A stretch of DNA of 9,075 nt, taken from IMG/VR virus record IMGVR_UViG_2703718801_000002, positions 1 through 9,075 of that record; one strand, given 5' to 3'. This stretch comes from a virus (taxonomy: Duplodnaviria; Heunggongvirae; Uroviricota; Caudoviricetes). Made by a program: the position numbers. Shown here piece after piece: positions 1 to 6,000 of this stretch (position 1 is the stretch's first letter; every line of letters starts with the position of its first letter).

Positions 1-3000
1 GTCAGGGCAACGCCCTGTGGCAGTGAAGAGACCGGCCAGTAAAACGCCATAACATACTGGTTCGCAGCCAGCGCTCCCGAAACCTTAAAGCGGCAGCGAA
101 TCTGCCCCCCTTTCTGTAACAGAGCCGCACCGTTGCCCGCGGCGTACTCCAGCACCCAGCTGCTTTTACCGGCCTCCTTGGTCAGCTTCACTGCCTTACC
201 TCCGGTTCCCTCCGCATCGCTGACCACTTCTGCCCTGCCGCCACTGGCTGACCATCCCTGTACTTTCAGGCTTCCCTCTGACTCGCTGGCAAGGTAAGAG
301 AGCAGTGTTGTGACGCCTGTGGCTTCTGCACCGGAAGGCGATGAAGGGCGCACCTCTGATACTGTCGATGATGCCCCCGCGTTTAGCGCCACTCTTCCCG
401 CATGGCGCAAAATCGCCGTTGCCAGACGGTCGGAAATAATCCCACGGCGTGCCCAGGCGCTGAAATGGCTCGCCCTGTCCTGTGACGTCCAGGTGGCTGA
501 GCTGTCACGCCATTTCGAACCGTAATATCCGATACCCGGAATGTCCGGGTCTTCTTCCGGTTTGTTCGTCGGCACATTCACCCCGTTCTCATCGGTCATG
601 AACGGTACGAAATGGATATTCTTTTCCGTTTTGTTTTTATAGCTGCCGTACACCGTCTGGTACGTGGATTCGTTCTTCTGCTTCCAGAAATACGTCGTAT
701 CTCCACATATCCAGGGAACACCGCCAGCAGAGCCACCGACGCACTGACCTGCCATATCCGCCAGGTCTGCACGGAATTTATCAACCAGCGCACCAAACTG
801 TGCTGCGTGATTTGCCGGCGTACCGCCAAAATCAAATTCCCCCTGCATCCACACCACGGCAAACAGCACATTTTTCGGATTCTTCTTCAGTGCTGCTTTT
901 GTTCGACCGATAAGGTCCTTATACAGCGGCTTGTCCACACCCCAGCGGGTTGAATTCTCCGAGGCACCACTCGCGTCACTGTATGTGCCATCGGCTCCGG
1001 TGGTGAACGCTGAACCACCACGACAGCACGGAACCAGCAGAATGCCCGCATTCGCCGGTATAAACGGCAGCAATTTTTTGGCGATATGCAGCCCCTGCCC
1101 CACGGTTCCGTACTGCCCCTTTGACAGGTCCGCTTTCGGATGGTTAAGGCGGCTCATGTCCTGCACATCATGCAGACAATGGTCCGCCGGAATGATGTCG
1201 TTATATTTACAGGCGACACCGCCCGGTGTCACCGTACTGCGACGCGCCAGCTGCTTAATGCGCGGGTCCGGACGGTCATATGTCTCCGGCAGCGGAAGGC
1301 CTTCACCATATGCCATGCTGTTTGACTGCCCCGCCAGAACCACAACAAAGTAATACTCCGGGTCTCTGGTGGCGCTGATTACTGTGCCTTCTCCATCCGA
1401 CGGCTTCACCAACACAGGTGTGGTGACATCACCTTCCGCCGCAATGGCCTGCATCAGAGTATAAGGCGTGATGGCCACCGGGCTGCCAAATGGCTGCCAC
1501 CCCTCCTTCAGTTTTTGTGTCAGCTTTTCCGCAAGGTCTGACGGCGACGCCGCCCTGACAACATCATAATGTTTAATCGACATCGAATTTCTCCCGTGTA
1601 CAGGAACAGAGTTAAAAAGCCGGAACCGGAATCAAATTACAGGATGGCCATCTGCCAGTGGCTGGTCGTAAAAAAAGGCCACGCCATGCGCAGCCGGAAA
1701 TAAAGGGATAACGATGATAGTTTGAGAAAAACAGAAACAACACTTTTGTGGCAAAGCATGGTGCCGGGTGCCTCCCGGTGAGTTCAGTATCAGCACCTGA
1801 ATCCGCGATTATCCCATATACCTGGTTGCTGATCGCCCCTCCGCACAGGGGGATTCACCATGCAGAAGTGTTTTTAATAAACAGCAAATAAAAAAATCAA
1901 GCATTATGCAGGCTGTTTAACCACATCCAGCACATCTTCCGCTTCACGCGTATCGTGTTTCACATCTTCAATTTCACGCAATGCCGCTCGACGACCAATT
2001 TTAAAGTTCGTATCCAGCTGACCGATAATGGTTGCGCTAATCGCATTAATTTCTGACGTAAACGCGGACAACGCAGGCTGGTTACGCAAGACCTGCTCGA
2101 TCTTCGCTTTCTCTGAAGCCTCACATTCACCATCTGCATAGGCCACCAGATAGGCAGCATTAATAACCGCCTGTGCCAGATCACGTTTCTCAAACTTTTT
2201 AATTTCCACTGCCGCTCGGCGGGCTTTTTTACCAAAAATACCAAACATCGTGACGTTCCTTTGGGTGGGTGAGCCAACGCCCGGGAGCGATCTGCCCACA
2301 GAGAAAGTCACACTGACCACTCCGTAAGCTCACCCCCGAAAGGCTCTGTGGTTGATATGCGCCGGGCGTGGCGCAGATACAAAAAAAGCCCGCCGAAGCG
2401 AGCCTGATAATAAATCTGGAGCGGGTAGCGGGAATCGAACCCGCATCATCAGCCTGGAAGGCTGAGGTAATAGCCATTATACGGTACCCGCATATGGTGC
2501 CGGCTACCGGAATCGAACTGGCGACCTGATGATTACAAGTCAGTTGCTCTACCATTGGAGCTAAACCAGCATGTTTGGCGGGACAGCGTGGACTCGAACC
2601 ACGATAAGAAGGTTAACAGCCTTCCGTAATGACCTTTATACGACTGACCCAAATAAAAAAAGCCACCGTTGCAACTTAAGAGTCACTAACGGCAGCTTAC
2701 ATCTTTAAACGGTATGATATTTCATTCTGGCTGCCTCAAAAGCCGCAGCGGCAAGTTCGGCAGTGTCATGGTATCCAAGGTTAATACACTTTCCAGACGC
2801 ATTAATTCTTGCTCTCCATTTCCCGTACTTAGCATCCCAAGACACGCCACGGTATCCAGATTTATTATTCTTCTGAATTTTCCTGTTTTGCATATTTTCG
2901 GAATGAGTGACAAGACGAAGATTTGATATCCGGTTATCTGTTCTTACCCTGTTGATGTGATCAATAAAACCATCTGGCATGGTGCCATAAACAATCAACC

Positions 3001-6000
3001 ATGCCAGTCTGTGAGCAGGGTATGCTTTACCATTAATCATAATCATTAAATACCCATCAGAATTTATTGATGAGCATTTCTTGAAAGCAAAACGAGAGTT
3101 CCATGTCAAAGTGGTCCTCTCTCTCCCCTGCCTCCACCTCCAGTGAAAGTCGCCTGATGATGGATTGTAATCAACAACAGAAAGCACCATTTCTGGCGTT
3201 AATTTTATTTCTTTCATCGCTTTACCTTAGGGATAGAGCCTGTTCGCGTAGATATGACAGCCAAGAGCGGAGCGATGTTTCCACCACCATATCTCAGGCC
3301 CATATCACTAAGACTCTTGTTTTGATTGCACGCGAATGCAAAAAAGCCCACAGGAGGTGGGCTTGTGATGGTTGCTGAATGCAAAAGCAGCAGCATATGT
3401 GAATATTATGGCTAAATGGCTAATTGCATGTCAAGACTTTTAACAGCAACATGCTTAACTTTCTCAACACGTTTACGCATTTTGAAAGCATTTTGCATTG
3501 GTTGGTACAAAACAAATAATGACGCTTTCAGGATATCGTCAATTTCGTTTCTACAGGTTGCCAGTGAAGGTTTTCTCCATCCCTCGCCACCGCGTCCACA
3601 CATCTTGCGTGGCTTTGCAATCGCGTGATAGTAGGATGCAATTGCTCTCTTAGATGAACCATGAGCGTAGTAGCTGAGGAGGATGCCAAAGGCTTTCTTG
3701 TCAATGTACATGACGGAATCGACGACCTGAGAAATCAACATTCCATCATCATCATTGCACATTGGTCTTGTCATAACTCTTCCCGGCTCTACGCTCTCCA
3801 TGAACTTCGCTATTACGCTGCTCATGCGCTTTTCCAGACGACCTGAATAAACCCATGCGCCCCACAGTTCAAGCCAGCCATTCAGCCAATCGTGCTGTTC
3901 TTTGGTGAGGTTTGGTTCTCTTATGCCCATGCGACTTCTCCCTTGTTATCTGGAATGGTTTTTACTGAGAGCGTCATGCGGCCTCACTTCTGCTGTTTCG
4001 CAGGTCTTTGAGTTTCTGTTGGTACTCTGCCTTGATGGCCCTGCACTCTTCGACAGTCCAGCGATGGCGGTTATGGTTTGATTCGATTTCATCTACTGCT
4101 TCCTGCCCGATGCGGCTAATCAGTTCGACGCGATACAGAACGAGATTTCCGCTTTTGTGCTGGTTGCACACCACGCATTGCTTGTGAATATTGCGTTCAT
4201 CAAATCGGAGTTGAGGTGCCGCAGCAGTTGTCCGGTAATGTCCGGCATCCCACTGAGCAGACGTGAGCGTTCCGCACGAGATACATGGTAAGTCGCGGTC
4301 TCTTTCTCTGACGAAGGCGTTTACGGCTTGTTGGGCTTGTTTAATCCAGTAACTGCGGGGCTTTAAGGCGAGTTTTCGAATCTTCAGTTTATCTTTCTGT
4401 TTCTGCTCCTCTCGTCGTCGTTTCTTCTCTGCTGCTTTTTCCGCTTTTTCGCGTTCTTTACTTCGTCGTTCGAGTGCTAATTGAGTTCCGTGTTCCGGGC
4501 AGCACCACCACTGATTTGAGAATGCCGGGTGAAACCATTCCTTGCATATTTTGCATTTCCTTCGCGCTGGTTTAGCCATTAAGCAGCCTCCCCTGTTACT
4601 TTCAGCATTCCGTTATCGAGCAGCTTTCTGGTCAGCCACTGTTGACCACGCCCGGTGATTTTTGTGGTGAACGATATCTGTATTCCGTGATTTGTGTTGA
4701 CCGCTGTTTCTTTCACTGTGAAATAGCCACGATCCATATATTCCTGCATTGGCACATTTCGCCGGGAACCTGAAGCAATAAGGATTTTGTGATCGCGCAT
4801 CCACGCAAACAGTTTGTTTGGACCAATACCAACAACCTTTGCAAAGTTTCCAATCAAAATTCCGCTGGCCTCGCCAACGCGATCGGCAAACTCAACTTTA
4901 GGTGCGGCAATTGCGATCTGGTTTTCCAGTTGCATTTTCTGCTCAGCAAGATCAGCAGCAAGGCGCAACGCTTCTGGTAGCGTTTTGGGGATATTAACCG
5001 CAGCTTCTTCAAGCTCTCGCCAGCGGTCAACAAGGCGAGCGGTGAATTCCGGCGACAGCTGGGCTACAACGACAATACTGTCTCGCTTTCCTTGTTCGCC
5101 TTCGAAGACGTAATGCTCGTACTGAACATTGAACCCTAAGTTATTGATTCTTTCGGAAACCTCAATTTGAGGAAGCCGGATAACACCATTTTTAGCCAGC
5201 GTTTCGATGGTACGTTTCACATTGTCATGACGCTTACCCACCAACTCAGCGATTTCAATGCTTGTCATTTTGATGGCATTGCCATTTATTAACTCACTCA
5301 TCGTCTTCTTCCTCGTACATTGAGCTATTCGGATCGCTCATCAGTTCTGCGCAGCAATCGGAGCACACGTGAACTTCCAGCACATGCAGCTTCTGACCGC
5401 AGTTAGCGCACGTTAAAGCCCGCTCGACGCTTTCTTTCTGGTATTGAAGGGATTGGGATGGACTAAGCATGGCTTTCACCATTAAAAAGTCGCTTGTAAG
5501 CATCAATGTCTCGTTTTGCTTCACCGAGCTTTCGTCTTAATTCCATGTTTTCTGATTCAAGCTTTTCCATGTCTTGCTGGTATCGGTCGCGGTGTTCTTT
5601 CCATGCTTTTTTATACGCCTTCATGTATGTCATGTTGGCCTTTCTCTTTGCCTGACGAACTGCGTGGTGGTTTTTCACAAACCAGTCAGGGTCGTTAAAT
5701 GCTGCTCTGGCGCAGGTATACCAATAATTTGTTGCCTCCCTGTTTAGCCAATAAATACTGATAAATGGCAACCGGATAGACACCATTTTTCGTTGAGACT
5801 CTTTCTCGCCAAACATGTGCCCTTTTTTGATGCTAAGGCCAAATCCAGGTTGAATTAAAAGCATTGTCATGTCCTCTCACATTGAAAATTCAGCAATAAA
5901 AAACCCAGCCGAAGCTGGGTTTGTTAAGTTGTCAATTGTCAGTAGCGATGCAGTGAAGGCGGCAACTCTTTGTTCTTAAGCCTTTCCCATGCCAGAAGGT

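What the first reader, a model, noticed from the sequence alone, without database searches (positions are those of the whole stretch)
2705..3217. Second HNH endonuclease (HNH-AP2 type) placed directly downstream of tR' under apparent Q-dependent late control
A 170-aa HNH-AP2 endonuclease occupies the segment between tR' and the tRNA cluster, where Stx phages have only a short spacer. Two unrelated homing-type endonucleases within 9 kb (this one and the ninB-associated one) suggests this prophage is a hotspot for such elements, and this one would be expressed only after Q antitermination.
Basis: partly seen in the sequence, partly recalled or inferred. Interest (0 to 1): 0.45.

Follow-up and report, generated by a model that had tools for sequence, protein, structure and literature searches.

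The report
Optional HNH-AP2 nuclease cassette, structured leader
The gene is real: an optional, homing-type HNH-AP2 nuclease cassette sits inside the late-transcript leader of a phage-21-family prophage, between two terminators. The surprise is a conserved, apparently undescribed pseudoknotted RNA in front of it, which other lambdoid phages (including HK97 and HK022) place before their Rha/KilA-N genes.

Summary
Confirmed. Minus-strand ORF 3217-2705 encodes a 170-aa I-HmuI-like HNH_3 plus AP2 protein between the late promoter/terminator of a Q21-family antiterminator and a tRNA-Asn/Thr/Gly cluster.

It is optional. Sf6, phage 21, JLK-2012 and ST160 join the two flanks directly. About 700 bp (3404-2701) is extra here, and only about 5% of Q21-family late regions in complete E. 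coli genomes carry it. All copies are at least 99% identical, behind two Q alleles and ahead of three downstream contexts.

- The gene lies between two copies of the late leader/terminator: an A-type at 3398-3340 and the phage-21-type at 2699-2652.
- Orthologues of 62-76% identity in Serratia, Pantoea and E. coli hold the same slot.
- The roughly 125-nt untranslated leader (3341-3218) is better conserved than the ORF. It shows compensatory changes in five helices including a pseudoknot, pairs with the Shine-Dalgarno sequence, and has no Rfam match. It also precedes Rha, KilA-N and ANT genes in other lambdoid phages.

The two HNH genes in the window are not unrelated, because they share the catalytic core. 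Q-dependent expression and homing are inferred, not shown. The gene itself is already annotated (HK629); the leader RNA is the novel part.

The parts
3412..3930 (-). Q antiterminator, phage 21/Sf6/L family (172 aa)
   Evidence: Pfam Phage_antitermQ at 89 bits. It is 97.6% identical in DNA to Sf6 gene 59 and 84-87% to phage 21 Q. Divergence from the phage-21 allele is concentrated in the C-terminal half and the promoter, at 64-70%.
3405..3434 (-). Late promoter PR': -35 TTGACA 3434-3429; Q-binding-element-like tandem repeats AATTAGCC/ATTTAGCC 3425-3410; -10 CATAAT 3410-3405
   Evidence: The promoter scan matches 11 of 12 consensus positions. The position is homologous to the annotated phage 21 PR'/QBE and identical to Sf6. 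Phage L has the same kind of repeats, AATTATCC/ATTTAGCC, interpreted there as its QBE (PMC8022706).
3391..3398 (-). Predicted late transcription start (A3398) and pause-element-like TATGCTG, copy 1
   Evidence: Aligns with the phage 21 start site and its sigma-dependent pause element TAAGCTG, as annotated in OL657228. Inferred by homology.
3340..3364 (-). Intrinsic terminator, A-type tR' (AAGCCCAC-CTCCT-GTGGGCTT plus six T)
   Evidence: Found by the terminator scan. The 63-nt RNA spanning it (3398-3336), which contains this hairpin and a second small one, folds at -21.5 kcal/mol, z = -3.2. It is annotated as a rho-independent terminator in HK629. It is the only late terminator in E. coli WCHEC115106 and Hafnia phage yong1, which lack the HNH gene.
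3218..3341 (-). Conserved structured leader RNA. P1 is 3341-3337/3330-3326. The P1 loop 3336-3331 pairs with 3248-3243 (pseudoknot). P2 is 3319-3314/3267-3262. The anti-SD segment is 3313-3308. P3 is 3301-3295/3242-3236. P4 is 3286-3282/3277-3273 with a GAAA loop. The SD is CUAAGG 3230-3225.
   Evidence: About 90% conserved across loci whose ORFs are 62-76% identical. In 29 distinct sequences, 98.7% of cells pair against 89.6% in shuffles and 30-47% in slid controls, and 9 pairs show compensatory changes. Anti-SD pairing was checked in 21 distinct leaders, and the best pairing fell on the SD in every one. The minimum-free-energy fold agrees. No Rfam family matches.
2705..3217 (-). HNH-AP2 endonuclease ORF (HNH_3 about 3022-2888; AP2 about 2860-2717)
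   Evidence: D86-H87, N99 and N108 are invariant in relatives down to 44% identity.
2652..2699 (-). Second late-leader copy: TAAGCTG plus the phage 21/Sf6-type tR' hairpin and T-run (B-type)
   Evidence: Identical to phage 21 from position +2 through tR'. The 54-nt RNA containing it (2704-2651) folds at -20.2 kcal/mol, z = -4.2. The matching stretch is annotated as terminator (tR') in phage 21 and Sf6, and as qut site in Sf6.
2701..3404 (-). Extent of the extra DNA relative to Sf6, where it replaces TAGAAG. Relative to phage 21 and JLK-2012 it is 2700-3397, flanked by TATGCTGC / TAAGCTGC.
   Evidence: Pairwise BLAST and direct sequence comparison.
2417..2650 (-). tRNA-Asn(GTT), tRNA-Thr and tRNA-Gly(TCC) cluster of the late operon
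   Evidence: ARAGORN finds Asn and Gly and Rfam finds all three. Homologous records annotate Asn/Thr/Gly.
7585..8187 (-). The other HNH gene (NUMOD4 + HNH_3 + I-HmuI NUMOD-like) between ninB and dam
   Evidence: Pfam. Present in 77 of 5,426 E. coli genomes. Absent from the otherwise similar prophage of LZSFT34.

Best explanation
The region is an optional accessory cassette of about 0.7 kb, lodged in the untranslated leader of the late operon of a Q21-family lambdoid prophage. Its order is: PR' start, an A-type leader and terminator, a roughly 125-nt pseudoknotted RNA leader that base-pairs with the ribosome-binding site, the HNH-AP2 ORF, and a B-type (phage 21) leader and terminator. tRNA genes, tciA/tciB and the remaining late genes follow. 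In a lysogen, PR' transcripts should stop at the first terminator, so the nuclease would be silent. After induction, Q-loaded RNA polymerase should read through both terminators and transcribe the gene with the late genes, and the structured leader then sets how much is translated. The protein combines an I-HmuI-like HNH (HNN) catalytic core with an AP2 DNA-binding domain. It most likely nicks or cuts a specific DNA site in related lambdoid genomes that lack the cassette. That would favour inheritance of the cassette and its flanks by recombinational repair, either as homing or as marker exclusion in mixed infection. Shown here: the gene, its domains, the exact boundaries, empty and occupied alleles, spread across different flanks, conservation of the slot across genera, and covariation in the leader. 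Inferred: Q dependence, nuclease activity and target, and the leader's role in translation.
For: Domains and fold are supported, and the catalytic residues are invariant. Empty alleles with nucleotide-level junctions exist in Sf6, phage 21, JLK-2012 and ST160, and in yong1/WCHEC115106 for the A-type background. The cassette occurs at 44 places in 41 of 5,426 E. coli genomes, all at least 99% identical, against 838 Q21-family late regions in 775 genomes. Near-identical copies lie behind two Q alleles (84% versus 97-100% identity to the window) and ahead of three downstream contexts. Identity to UTME-3 drops from 96-100% to 64-70% exactly at the transcription start. Orthologues of 62-76% identity in E. 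coli, Pantoea, Serratia and unidentified hosts sit at the same distance behind a Q21-family gene. A decayed remnant, the leader plus 68 bp of ORF, survives in the PhiR12 phages and NCTC9112. PR', the Q-binding repeats and the start site are homologous to phage 21 and phage L. No promoter was predicted between the terminator and the ORF. HNN-AP2 proteins are an established class of free-standing phage homing endonucleases, and homing endonuclease genes tend to bracket essential genes (PMC2248197; PMC10448857).
Against: No cleavage, expression or inheritance data exist for this gene. The left junction of the occupied allele (ATTCRCATATGCTGCTG) differs from the empty site (ATTCGCATAAGCTGCCG) at only two positions, and the B-type leader is intact downstream. 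An obvious 'disrupted target' is therefore not visible. Cassettes with the same leader but no nuclease (Rha, KilA-N, ANT) occupy the same kinds of slot, and in one locus (L217) the same post-Q slot. The distribution therefore does not require nuclease-driven mobility. Long-term residence of diverged orthologues at one site also fits vertical descent of a useful gene. GC content is only slightly lower than in the flanks, about 40-41% against 46-52%.
Confidence: 0.6

Rival explanations
1. The cassette is one of a set of interchangeable 'terminator - leader RNA - ORF' accessory modules. These modules are shuffled among lambdoid phages by ordinary homologous recombination at the conserved leader and terminator sequences. 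Under this view the nuclease does not drive its own spread. It serves the phage, for example by damaging competing phage or resident prophage DNA late in infection.
For: The same leader family precedes Rha, KilA-N, ANT and ORF11CD3 genes. In every locus where the upstream sequence could be read, a hairpin plus T-run lies close upstream. The upstream gene, where it could be called, is mostly a spanin/Rz-like lysis gene, and in L217 it is a Q21-type Q. HK97 and HK022 carry it between Rz and the KilA-N gene. The identity break lies exactly at the start site, a module boundary. Direct repeats at both possible insertion joints (TAWGCTGC, and GGCTTTTTT at the two terminators) would provide homology.
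Against: This does not explain why one HNH-AP2 lineage is tied to the Q21 late leader across genera, while Rha/KilA-N cassettes mostly use the post-lysis slot. Uniformity of at least 99% across different backgrounds suggests recent active spread. The family is known for homing.
Confidence: 0.25
2. The HNH protein is a DNA-packaging cofactor of the terminase, like HK97 gp74, and so is a functional late gene rather than an accessory one.
For: It would be co-expressed with late genes, and HNH proteins are widespread packaging components (Kala et al. 2014, cited in PMC12315714).
Against: The gene lies between Q and the tRNA/lysis genes, not next to a terminase or cos. About 95% of related late regions lack it. 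It occurs in phages with different packaging modules: HK629 is a Lambdavirus, and orthologue loci carry Terminase_2/3 or Sf6-type terminases. HK97 has its own separate HNH at the genome end. The domain type is HNH_3 plus AP2.
Confidence: 0.03
3. The gene has its own promoter inside the leader and is expressed from the prophage, as a moron or defence gene independent of Q.
For: The HK629 GenBank record places a 'putative late promoter pR'' between the terminator and the ORF. PADLOC has weak 'HEase' matches.
Against: The consensus scan finds no minus-strand promoter between 3344 and 3217. The annotated hexamer corresponds to TCTACG inside a conserved RNA helix. The experimentally defined phage 21 promoter maps upstream of the terminator. 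The sequence in this stretch co-varies as RNA helices rather than as promoter hexamers.
Confidence: 0.07
4. The protein is a nuclease-dead AP2 DNA-binding regulator, a domesticated homing endonuclease.
For: AP2 domains of homing endonucleases have been co-opted as regulators elsewhere. The neighbouring cassette types with the same leader encode DNA-binding regulators.
Against: D86-H87, N99, N108 and the DNR/NLR boxes are invariant down to 44% identity, and the HNH_3 score is strong.
Confidence: 0.05

Closest known systems
HK629 gp61 / E. coli E2348/69 prophage 'HNH endonuclease' (WP_000658765 group)
   Same: The same gene and cassette, 98-99.7% identical in DNA, in the same position after Q.
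   Different: HK629 has no tRNA genes after the second terminator and goes straight on to the holin gene. Only a product name is annotated. No description of the cassette, its duplicated leader or its RNA was found.
I-HmuI (phage SPO1 intron-encoded HNH nicking endonuclease, PDB 1U3E)
   Same: Best structural match of the N-terminal two-thirds (Foldseek probability 1.0, 105 columns). The DH...N...N motif aligns. I-HmuI-type enzymes act on related phage genomes.
   Different: Only 24% identity in the structural alignment, with sequence E 0.2. I-HmuI is intron-encoded and uses NUMOD/HTH DNA-binding modules. This protein is free-standing and uses an AP2 domain.
Free-standing HNN-AP2 homing endonucleases (Xanthomonas phages Xp10/OP1/Xop411; T5; RB49; ICP1 'IPA-HNH')
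   Same: Same two-domain architecture, with the HRLAWL, DNR, NLR and EN boxes and no Cys dyads. They are optional, prone to decay, and often sit next to essential genes. A locus drawn from a 44,520-bp viral contig, the genome length reported for Xop411, is 45% identical.
   Different: Those genes are described as scattered, with no conserved flanks. This lineage keeps one precise slot and a conserved RNA leader across genera.
Phage 21 / Sf6 / phage L late control unit (Q21-type Q, QBE, sigma-dependent pause element, tR', tRNA genes)
   Same: The promoter, Q-binding repeats, start site and B-type terminator are homologous, and identical to Sf6 up to the -10 element.
   Different: Here the leader/terminator is present twice (A-type and B-type) with about 640 bp between the copies.
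HK97 gp74-type packaging HNH
   Same: An HNH protein made late in a lambdoid phage.
   Different: Different HNH subfamily, different position (next to cos/terminase), and essential there but dispensable here.
Morons of HK97/HK022-type phages
   Same: An extra gene between conserved neighbours, bounded by a terminator.
   Different: No promoter of its own was detected. A terminator and a structured leader lie upstream instead.
SD-sequestering pseudoknotted leaders (for example preQ1-II and SAM-II riboswitches, T4 gene 32 operator); comparison from general knowledge
   Same: A compact pseudoknotted 5' UTR whose 3' end includes the ribosome-binding site.
   Different: No sequence or model similarity to any Rfam family. 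The ligand or partner is unknown. It is associated with phage DNA-binding and nuclease genes.

Membership tests
HNH (His-Me finger) endonuclease, HNH_3 / I-HmuI-like | Profile match above the curated threshold | tested here: met
   PF13392 at 66.1 bits against a 24.8 cutoff, covering the full profile 1-46. PHROG 99 at E 3e-73.
HNH (His-Me finger) endonuclease, HNH_3 / I-HmuI-like | Catalytic Asp-His and downstream Asn residues conserved | tested here: met
   D86, H87, N99, N108 and N111 are invariant in 14 relatives down to 44% identity. They align with the I-HmuI DH...N...N motif.
HNH (His-Me finger) endonuclease, HNH_3 / I-HmuI-like | beta-beta-alpha-metal fold | tested here: inconclusive
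   The AF2 model has pLDDT 87. The top PDB hit is I-HmuI 1u3e (probability 1.0), but E is 2e-3 and TM 0.39 because only one domain is shared.
HNH (His-Me finger) endonuclease, HNH_3 / I-HmuI-like | Metal-dependent DNA nicking or cleavage | not testable with these tools
   Needs biochemistry.
AP2/ERF DNA-binding domain | Profile match and three-stranded sheet plus helix fold | tested here: met
   PF00847 at 35.1 bits against a 33.3 cutoff. phmmer to WRI1 gives E 2e-6. Foldseek to 1gcc gives rmsd 1.8 A over 52 residues, and 7et4/7et5 also match.
Free-standing homing endonuclease gene | Presence/absence polymorphism at one defined site in otherwise homologous genomes | tested here: met
Free-standing homing endonuclease gene | Decayed or truncated copies (gain-decay-loss cycle) | tested here: met
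   The PhiR12 phages and NCTC9112 keep the leader plus the first 68 bp of the ORF. Truncated protein clusters also exist, though some may be contig ends.
Free-standing homing endonuclease gene | Enzyme cuts the gene-less allele at or near the insertion site, while the occupied allele is immune | not testable with these tools
   Junction sequences are defined, but no target can be deduced.
Free-standing homing endonuclease gene | Biased inheritance with co-conversion of flanks | tested here: inconclusive
   The cassette is at least 97% identical behind Q alleles that are 84% identical to each other. The 7 nt after the -10 element are phage-21-like (ATTCACA) in an Sf6-type promoter. This is compatible with co-conversion or with ordinary recombination.
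Packaging-associated HNH (HK97 gp74 type) | Adjacent to terminase/cos and required in all members of the phage group | tested here: not met
   It lies between Q and the tRNA/lysis genes. It is absent from about 95% of related late regions and is found with several terminase types.
Moron | Own promoter and terminator; expressed from the prophage | tested here: not met
   No promoter was predicted between 3344 and 3217. Terminators lie on both sides.
Any Rfam 15 RNA family (for the leader) | Covariance-model match | tested here: not met
   Nothing at gathering thresholds. Only chance-level hits at E up to 10 for the window, HK97 and yong1 versions.
Structured cis-regulatory RNA (generic) | Helices kept by compensatory substitutions, beyond controls | tested here: met
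   98.7% of cells paired against 89.6% shuffled (0 of 500 shuffles reached it) and 30-47% slid. 81 cells changed on both sides against 26 in shuffles. The pseudoknot pairs 12/113 and 14/111 each show three pair types. The central helices have an equally compatible alternative pairing.

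The most novel reading that the evidence does not exclude
The roughly 125-nt leader (window 3341-3218) belongs to an undescribed family of pseudoknotted 5'-UTR RNAs of enterobacterial lambdoid phages. The family is also present but unannotated in HK97 and HK022. It sits just downstream of an intrinsic terminator in all but about three of the distinct copies examined, ends at the ribosome-binding site, and gates translation of late-operon 'conflict' genes (HNH-AP2 nuclease, Rha, KilA-N, ANT). It has two mutually exclusive central pairings, which suggests a switch operated by a ligand, a protein or co-transcriptional folding, or possibly a processing ribozyme. In this reading the HNH-AP2 gene is a homing-type nuclease that has adopted the phage's own accessory-gene control module, and it targets the Q21-type late leader.
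Probability: 0.45. Interest if true: 0.72.

Novelty: new variant of a known kind. Interest (0 to 1): 0.55.

Why it matters
The nuclease on its own is ordinary: a known class, and already named in GenBank. Three things give the locus value.

- It offers a clean natural system for testing homing or marker exclusion in temperate lambdoid phages, where homing has been studied far less than in T-even phages. The system has exact empty and occupied alleles, a culturable phage (HK629), and a defined promoter and terminator.
- It shows that the few dozen bases between a late promoter and its terminator can be duplicated and can host a gene without disturbing Q-dependent control.
- It exposes a conserved, covarying, pseudoknotted leader RNA with no Rfam match, shared by nuclease and antirepressor-like genes in model phages. 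This may be a common post-transcriptional control for genes used in phage-phage conflict, and it can be tested directly with reporters and structure probing.

Tried and rejected
- **MAFFT with short empty-site sequences.** The alignment scattered them across the insert, so junctions were read from BLAST and from the raw sequence instead.
- **Coding potential of the leader.** The 60-aa ORF 3396-3214 and a 29-aa ORF end in an ATGA overlap with the HNH start, and the leader is fused in frame to the HNH ORF in 199-aa gene calls (P0004, P0010). This was rejected. Stops and frame-shifting indels break both ORFs in L012, L016 and L018, while nucleotide conservation stays high.
- **Group I intron or known ribozyme/riboswitch.** No Rfam match. 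The structured part is too small, and it also precedes non-nuclease genes.
- **Packaging role.** Rejected on position and distribution.
- **The pR' placed in the leader by the HK629 record.** Rejected against phage 21 homology.
- **Genome-contig scan.** It returned only relatives of 48% identity or less, so close contexts came from the look-up of encoding contigs, IMG/VR and E. coli genomes.
- **nhmmer with the leader model.** None of the distant HNH-AP2 loci matched apart from L109/L110. The leader therefore goes with lambdoid late operons, not with the protein family at large.
- **blastn 'distant'.** It does not bridge leader subtypes, so family size in E. coli is underestimated.
- **Column-wise counting of the anti-SD helix.** This failed because paired indels shift the register. 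A per-sequence duplex search was used instead; individual P values are weak, 0.02-0.66.
- **Covariance model.** None was built.
- **Literature.** Searches found no paper on this gene position or on the leader. Two searches failed on syntax.

Full report
**Setting.** All genes of interest lie on the minus strand, in the order of a lambdoid early-right/late junction:
- ninB (8677-8180)
- NUMOD4-HNH (8187-7585)
- dam (7606-7061)
- C4/isrK-type RNAs and an ORF6N/P22AR antirepressor (6858-5939)
- a Rha/KilAC (Roi-like) gene (5301-4579)
- ninG (4579-3974)
- Q (3930-3412)
- the finding itself (3217-2705)
- three tRNAs (2650-2417)
- a TerB-like tciA gene (2320-1904)
- an STnc100 match (1889-1720)
- an ORF of at least 543 aa running off the left end; its DNA matches the genes annotated as SASA-family carbohydrate esterase in related prophages at about 78%

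**Observation.** The 170-aa ORF is real. It scores HNH_3 at 66 bits and AP2 at 35 bits, both above Pfam thresholds, and PHROG 99 at E 3e-73.
- Its sequence matches I-HmuI weakly and plant AP2 factors.
- The AlphaFold model (pLDDT 87) finds I-HmuI first and AP2/ERF domains next in the PDB.
- D86-H87, N99 and N108 are invariant in relatives down to 44% identity, so an active nuclease is likely.
- The other HNH protein in the window shares this catalytic core, at 42% identity over 66 residues and E 5e-12. It carries NUMOD-type DNA-binding modules instead of AP2. 'Unrelated' is therefore wrong.

**Late control region.** The promoter is at 3434-3405: TTGACA, an 18-nt spacer, then CATAAT.
- It is identical to that of Sf6 and positionally homologous to the experimentally annotated phage 21 PR'.
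- The tandem repeats AATTAGCC/ATTTAGCC between the hexamers correspond to the Q-binding element of phage 21. They nearly match the repeats read as the QBE of phage L (PMC8022706).
- By homology, transcription starts at A3398 and TATGCTG (3397-3391) is the pause-element position.
- The hairpin at 3364-3344 plus six T is a strong terminator.

**Boundaries and empty sites.**
- Sf6 has the same Q allele (97.6% identity). It matches the window down to 3405, then resumes at 2700. In Sf6 six bases (TAGAAG) stand where the window has 704 bp.
- Phage 21 and JLK-2012 join 3390-3397 directly to 2692-2699. The insert relative to them is 3397-2700, flanked by TATGCTGC and TAAGCTGC.
- What follows the ORF (2699-2652) is the complete phage 21 late leader from +2 through tR'.
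- The HNH gene therefore lies between two late-leader/terminator units.
- The upstream 'A-type' unit is not peculiar to the cassette. E. coli WCHEC115106 and Hafnia phage yong1 use it as their only tR' and lack the HNH gene. Relative to those genomes, the insert begins right after the T-run and ends with a second terminator's T-run.
- HK629 carries the same cassette at 98.3% identity but no tRNAs.

**Distribution.**
- The 704-bp segment occurs at 44 places in 41 of 5,426 complete E. coli genomes. Every copy is at least 99% identical, and strain UTME-3 has two.
- Q21-family Q/PR' regions occur at 838 places in 775 genomes, so roughly 5% are occupied.
- Near-identical HNH genes sit behind the Sf6-type Q and behind the phage-21-type Q (84% identity). 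They sit ahead of tRNA-Asn/Thr/Gly, of tRNA-Asn/Thr only, or of no tRNAs.
- Against UTME-3, identity is 96-100% from the tRNAs through the first terminator. It falls to 64-70% exactly at the transcription start, across the promoter and the C-terminal half of Q, then recovers to 97-98%.
- The PhiR12 phages and NCTC9112 keep only the leader plus 68 bp of the ORF.
- These are the patterns expected of a mobile, decaying selfish gene. They are also what lambdoid module exchange produces.

**Deep conservation of the slot.** Orthologues of 62-76% protein identity in E. coli, Pantoea anthophila, Serratia and unidentified hosts all lie immediately after a Q21-family gene. In the 162/163-aa-Q loci the gap is the same 223-225 bp. 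Many of these prophages carry further HNH_3 genes in the nin region. In two of the loci (L012 and L014) a second HNH-AP2 gene abuts Q on the other side. This matches the published observation that homing endonuclease genes bracket essential genes (PMC10448857). It also makes 'this prophage is a hotspot' a property of the region rather than of this prophage.

**The leader RNA.** Between the first terminator and the start codon, the roughly 125 nt are about 90% conserved among loci whose ORFs are only 62-76% identical. Frame-breaking indels and stops exclude coding.
- A pattern scan of IMG/VR followed by nhmmer found 109 copies (39 distinct sequences) in viral contigs and fetched loci.
- Besides HNH-AP2, the downstream genes encode Rha, KilA-N, ANT/KilAC and ORF11CD3 proteins.
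- The upstream gene, where it could be called, is mostly a spanin/Rz-like lysis gene; in L217 it is a Q21-type Q. A hairpin plus T-run lies close upstream wherever the sequence could be read; in about three distinct copies a second small hairpin separates it from the leader.
- HK97 (37,535-37,665, before the KilA-N gene) and HK022 carry it unannotated.
- On an alignment of 29 distinct sequences I counted pairs for a pseudoknotted model with five helices. These are a P1 hairpin, its loop pairing with a segment about 85 nt downstream, a P2 helix, a P3 helix and a P4 hairpin (GAAA-capped in this window).
  - Cells forming standard pairs: 98.7%, against 89.6% in shuffles (none of 500 shuffles reached it) and 30-47% in slid controls.
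  - Cells changed on both sides: 81, against 26 in shuffles.
  - The pseudoknot pairs show GC/UA/AU and GC/AU/CG.
- RNAalifold proposes a nested alternative for the two central helices that is equally compatible with the data but supported only by wobble changes. A switch between the two pairings is possible.
- In all 21 distinct leaders tested for it, the segment just 3' of P2 pairs with the Shine-Dalgarno sequence. The variants include UCUUAG/CUAAGG, UCUUUA/UAAAGG and CUUUAGUG/CACUAAAG. The minimum-free-energy folds show the same pairing.
- No Rfam 15 family matches the window, HK97 or yong1 versions, and no paper on it was found.
- Caveat: the sequences fall into about six clades, so the number of independent compensatory events is roughly ten, not 81.

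**Interpretation.** The most economical reading is a cassette transcribed only by Q-modified polymerase and translated under control of the structured leader. It encodes a site-specific HNH-AP2 nuclease of the homing class (PMC2248197; PMC10448857).
- Whether the nuclease drives the cassette's spread is open. The alternative is that the cassette moves, like its Rha/KilA-N counterparts, by recombination at the conserved leader and terminators.
- The junctions give no clear disrupted target.
- A packaging role, an own promoter and a nuclease-dead regulator are each disfavoured by the evidence above.

**Novelty.** The gene is already annotated in public records and the protein class is known. The duplicated late leader, the fixed slot across genera and above all the leader RNA appear to be undescribed.

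Noticed in passing
window 3218-3341 (minus); also L302 (HK97) 2201-2331, L303 (HK022) 2201-2330, L010 (yong1) 1035-1169, L014 6457-6590: A conserved pseudoknotted leader RNA family with no Rfam match. It lies after terminators and before HNH-AP2, Rha, KilA-N and ANT genes in lambdoid phages.
   Followed up: yes
window 7585-8187 (minus): A NUMOD4 + HNH_3 + I-HmuI-NUMOD-like endonuclease wedged between ninB and dam, overlapping both. It is present in 77 of 5,426 E. coli genomes and absent from the otherwise similar LZSFT34 prophage. Empty-site junctions were not mapped.
   Followed up: partly
window 6663-6858 (minus): Rfam hits to C4 antisense RNA, its a1/b1 target and isrK lie directly upstream of the ORF6N/P22AR antirepressor gene (6613-5939). 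This looks like a P1/P7-type antisense control of an antirepressor in a lambdoid nin region.
   Followed up: no
window 1720-1889 (minus) and 1 to about 1630: A strong STnc100 sRNA match (99.8 bits) lies between tciA and a long ORF of at least 543 aa that runs off the left end. The ORF's DNA matches the genes annotated as SASA-family carbohydrate esterase in related prophages at about 78%. This is another conserved non-coding RNA in front of a late accessory gene.
   Followed up: no
window 2498-2570 (minus): The middle tRNA is missed by ARAGORN but found by Rfam at 49 bits. Homologous records annotate it as tRNA-Thr.
   Followed up: partly
window 3400-3700 versus L007: The Q alleles are mosaic. 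The promoter, Q-binding repeats and C-terminal half of Q are 64-82% identical, while the N-terminal half is 97-98% identical. The specificity module (protein C-terminus plus its DNA site) seems to be exchanged as a unit, as noted for phage L versus phage 21 in PMC8022706.
   Followed up: partly
L004 (PhiR12_1) 2638-2900; L011 (NCTC9112) 2501-2755: These genomes keep the first terminator, the whole leader RNA and only the first 68 bp of the HNH ORF, then jump to sequence upstream of the esterase gene. This is a deletion remnant of the cassette.
   Followed up: partly
L006 (E. coli LZSFT34) about 6905-6919: The tRNA cluster is collapsed. Window 2442-2584 is missing, apparently by recombination between tRNA-Gly and tRNA-Asn, which would leave a hybrid tRNA.
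   Followed up: no
L012 and L014 2776-3297: A second HNH_3 + AP2 gene (173 aa) lies immediately upstream of, and overlapping, the Q gene, so Q is bracketed by two HNH-AP2 genes. L016, L018 and L019 have other HNH_3 genes between ninE/ninG and Q.
   Followed up: no
L217 about 502-629: Here the post-Q slot holds a KilA-N gene with a D-type leader instead of HNH-AP2. The slot accepts different cassettes.
   Followed up: partly
L001 (HK629) 3098-3103: The GenBank record marks a 'putative late promoter pR'' inside the leader, downstream of the terminator. Homology to phage 21 places PR' upstream of the terminator instead.
   Followed up: yes
P0004, P0010 (199 aa): Gene callers extend some orthologues 29 codons into the leader RNA (MSLRYGGGNIAPLLAVISTRTGSIPKVIA...). 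This is probably an annotation artefact caused by a 1-nt indel.
   Followed up: partly
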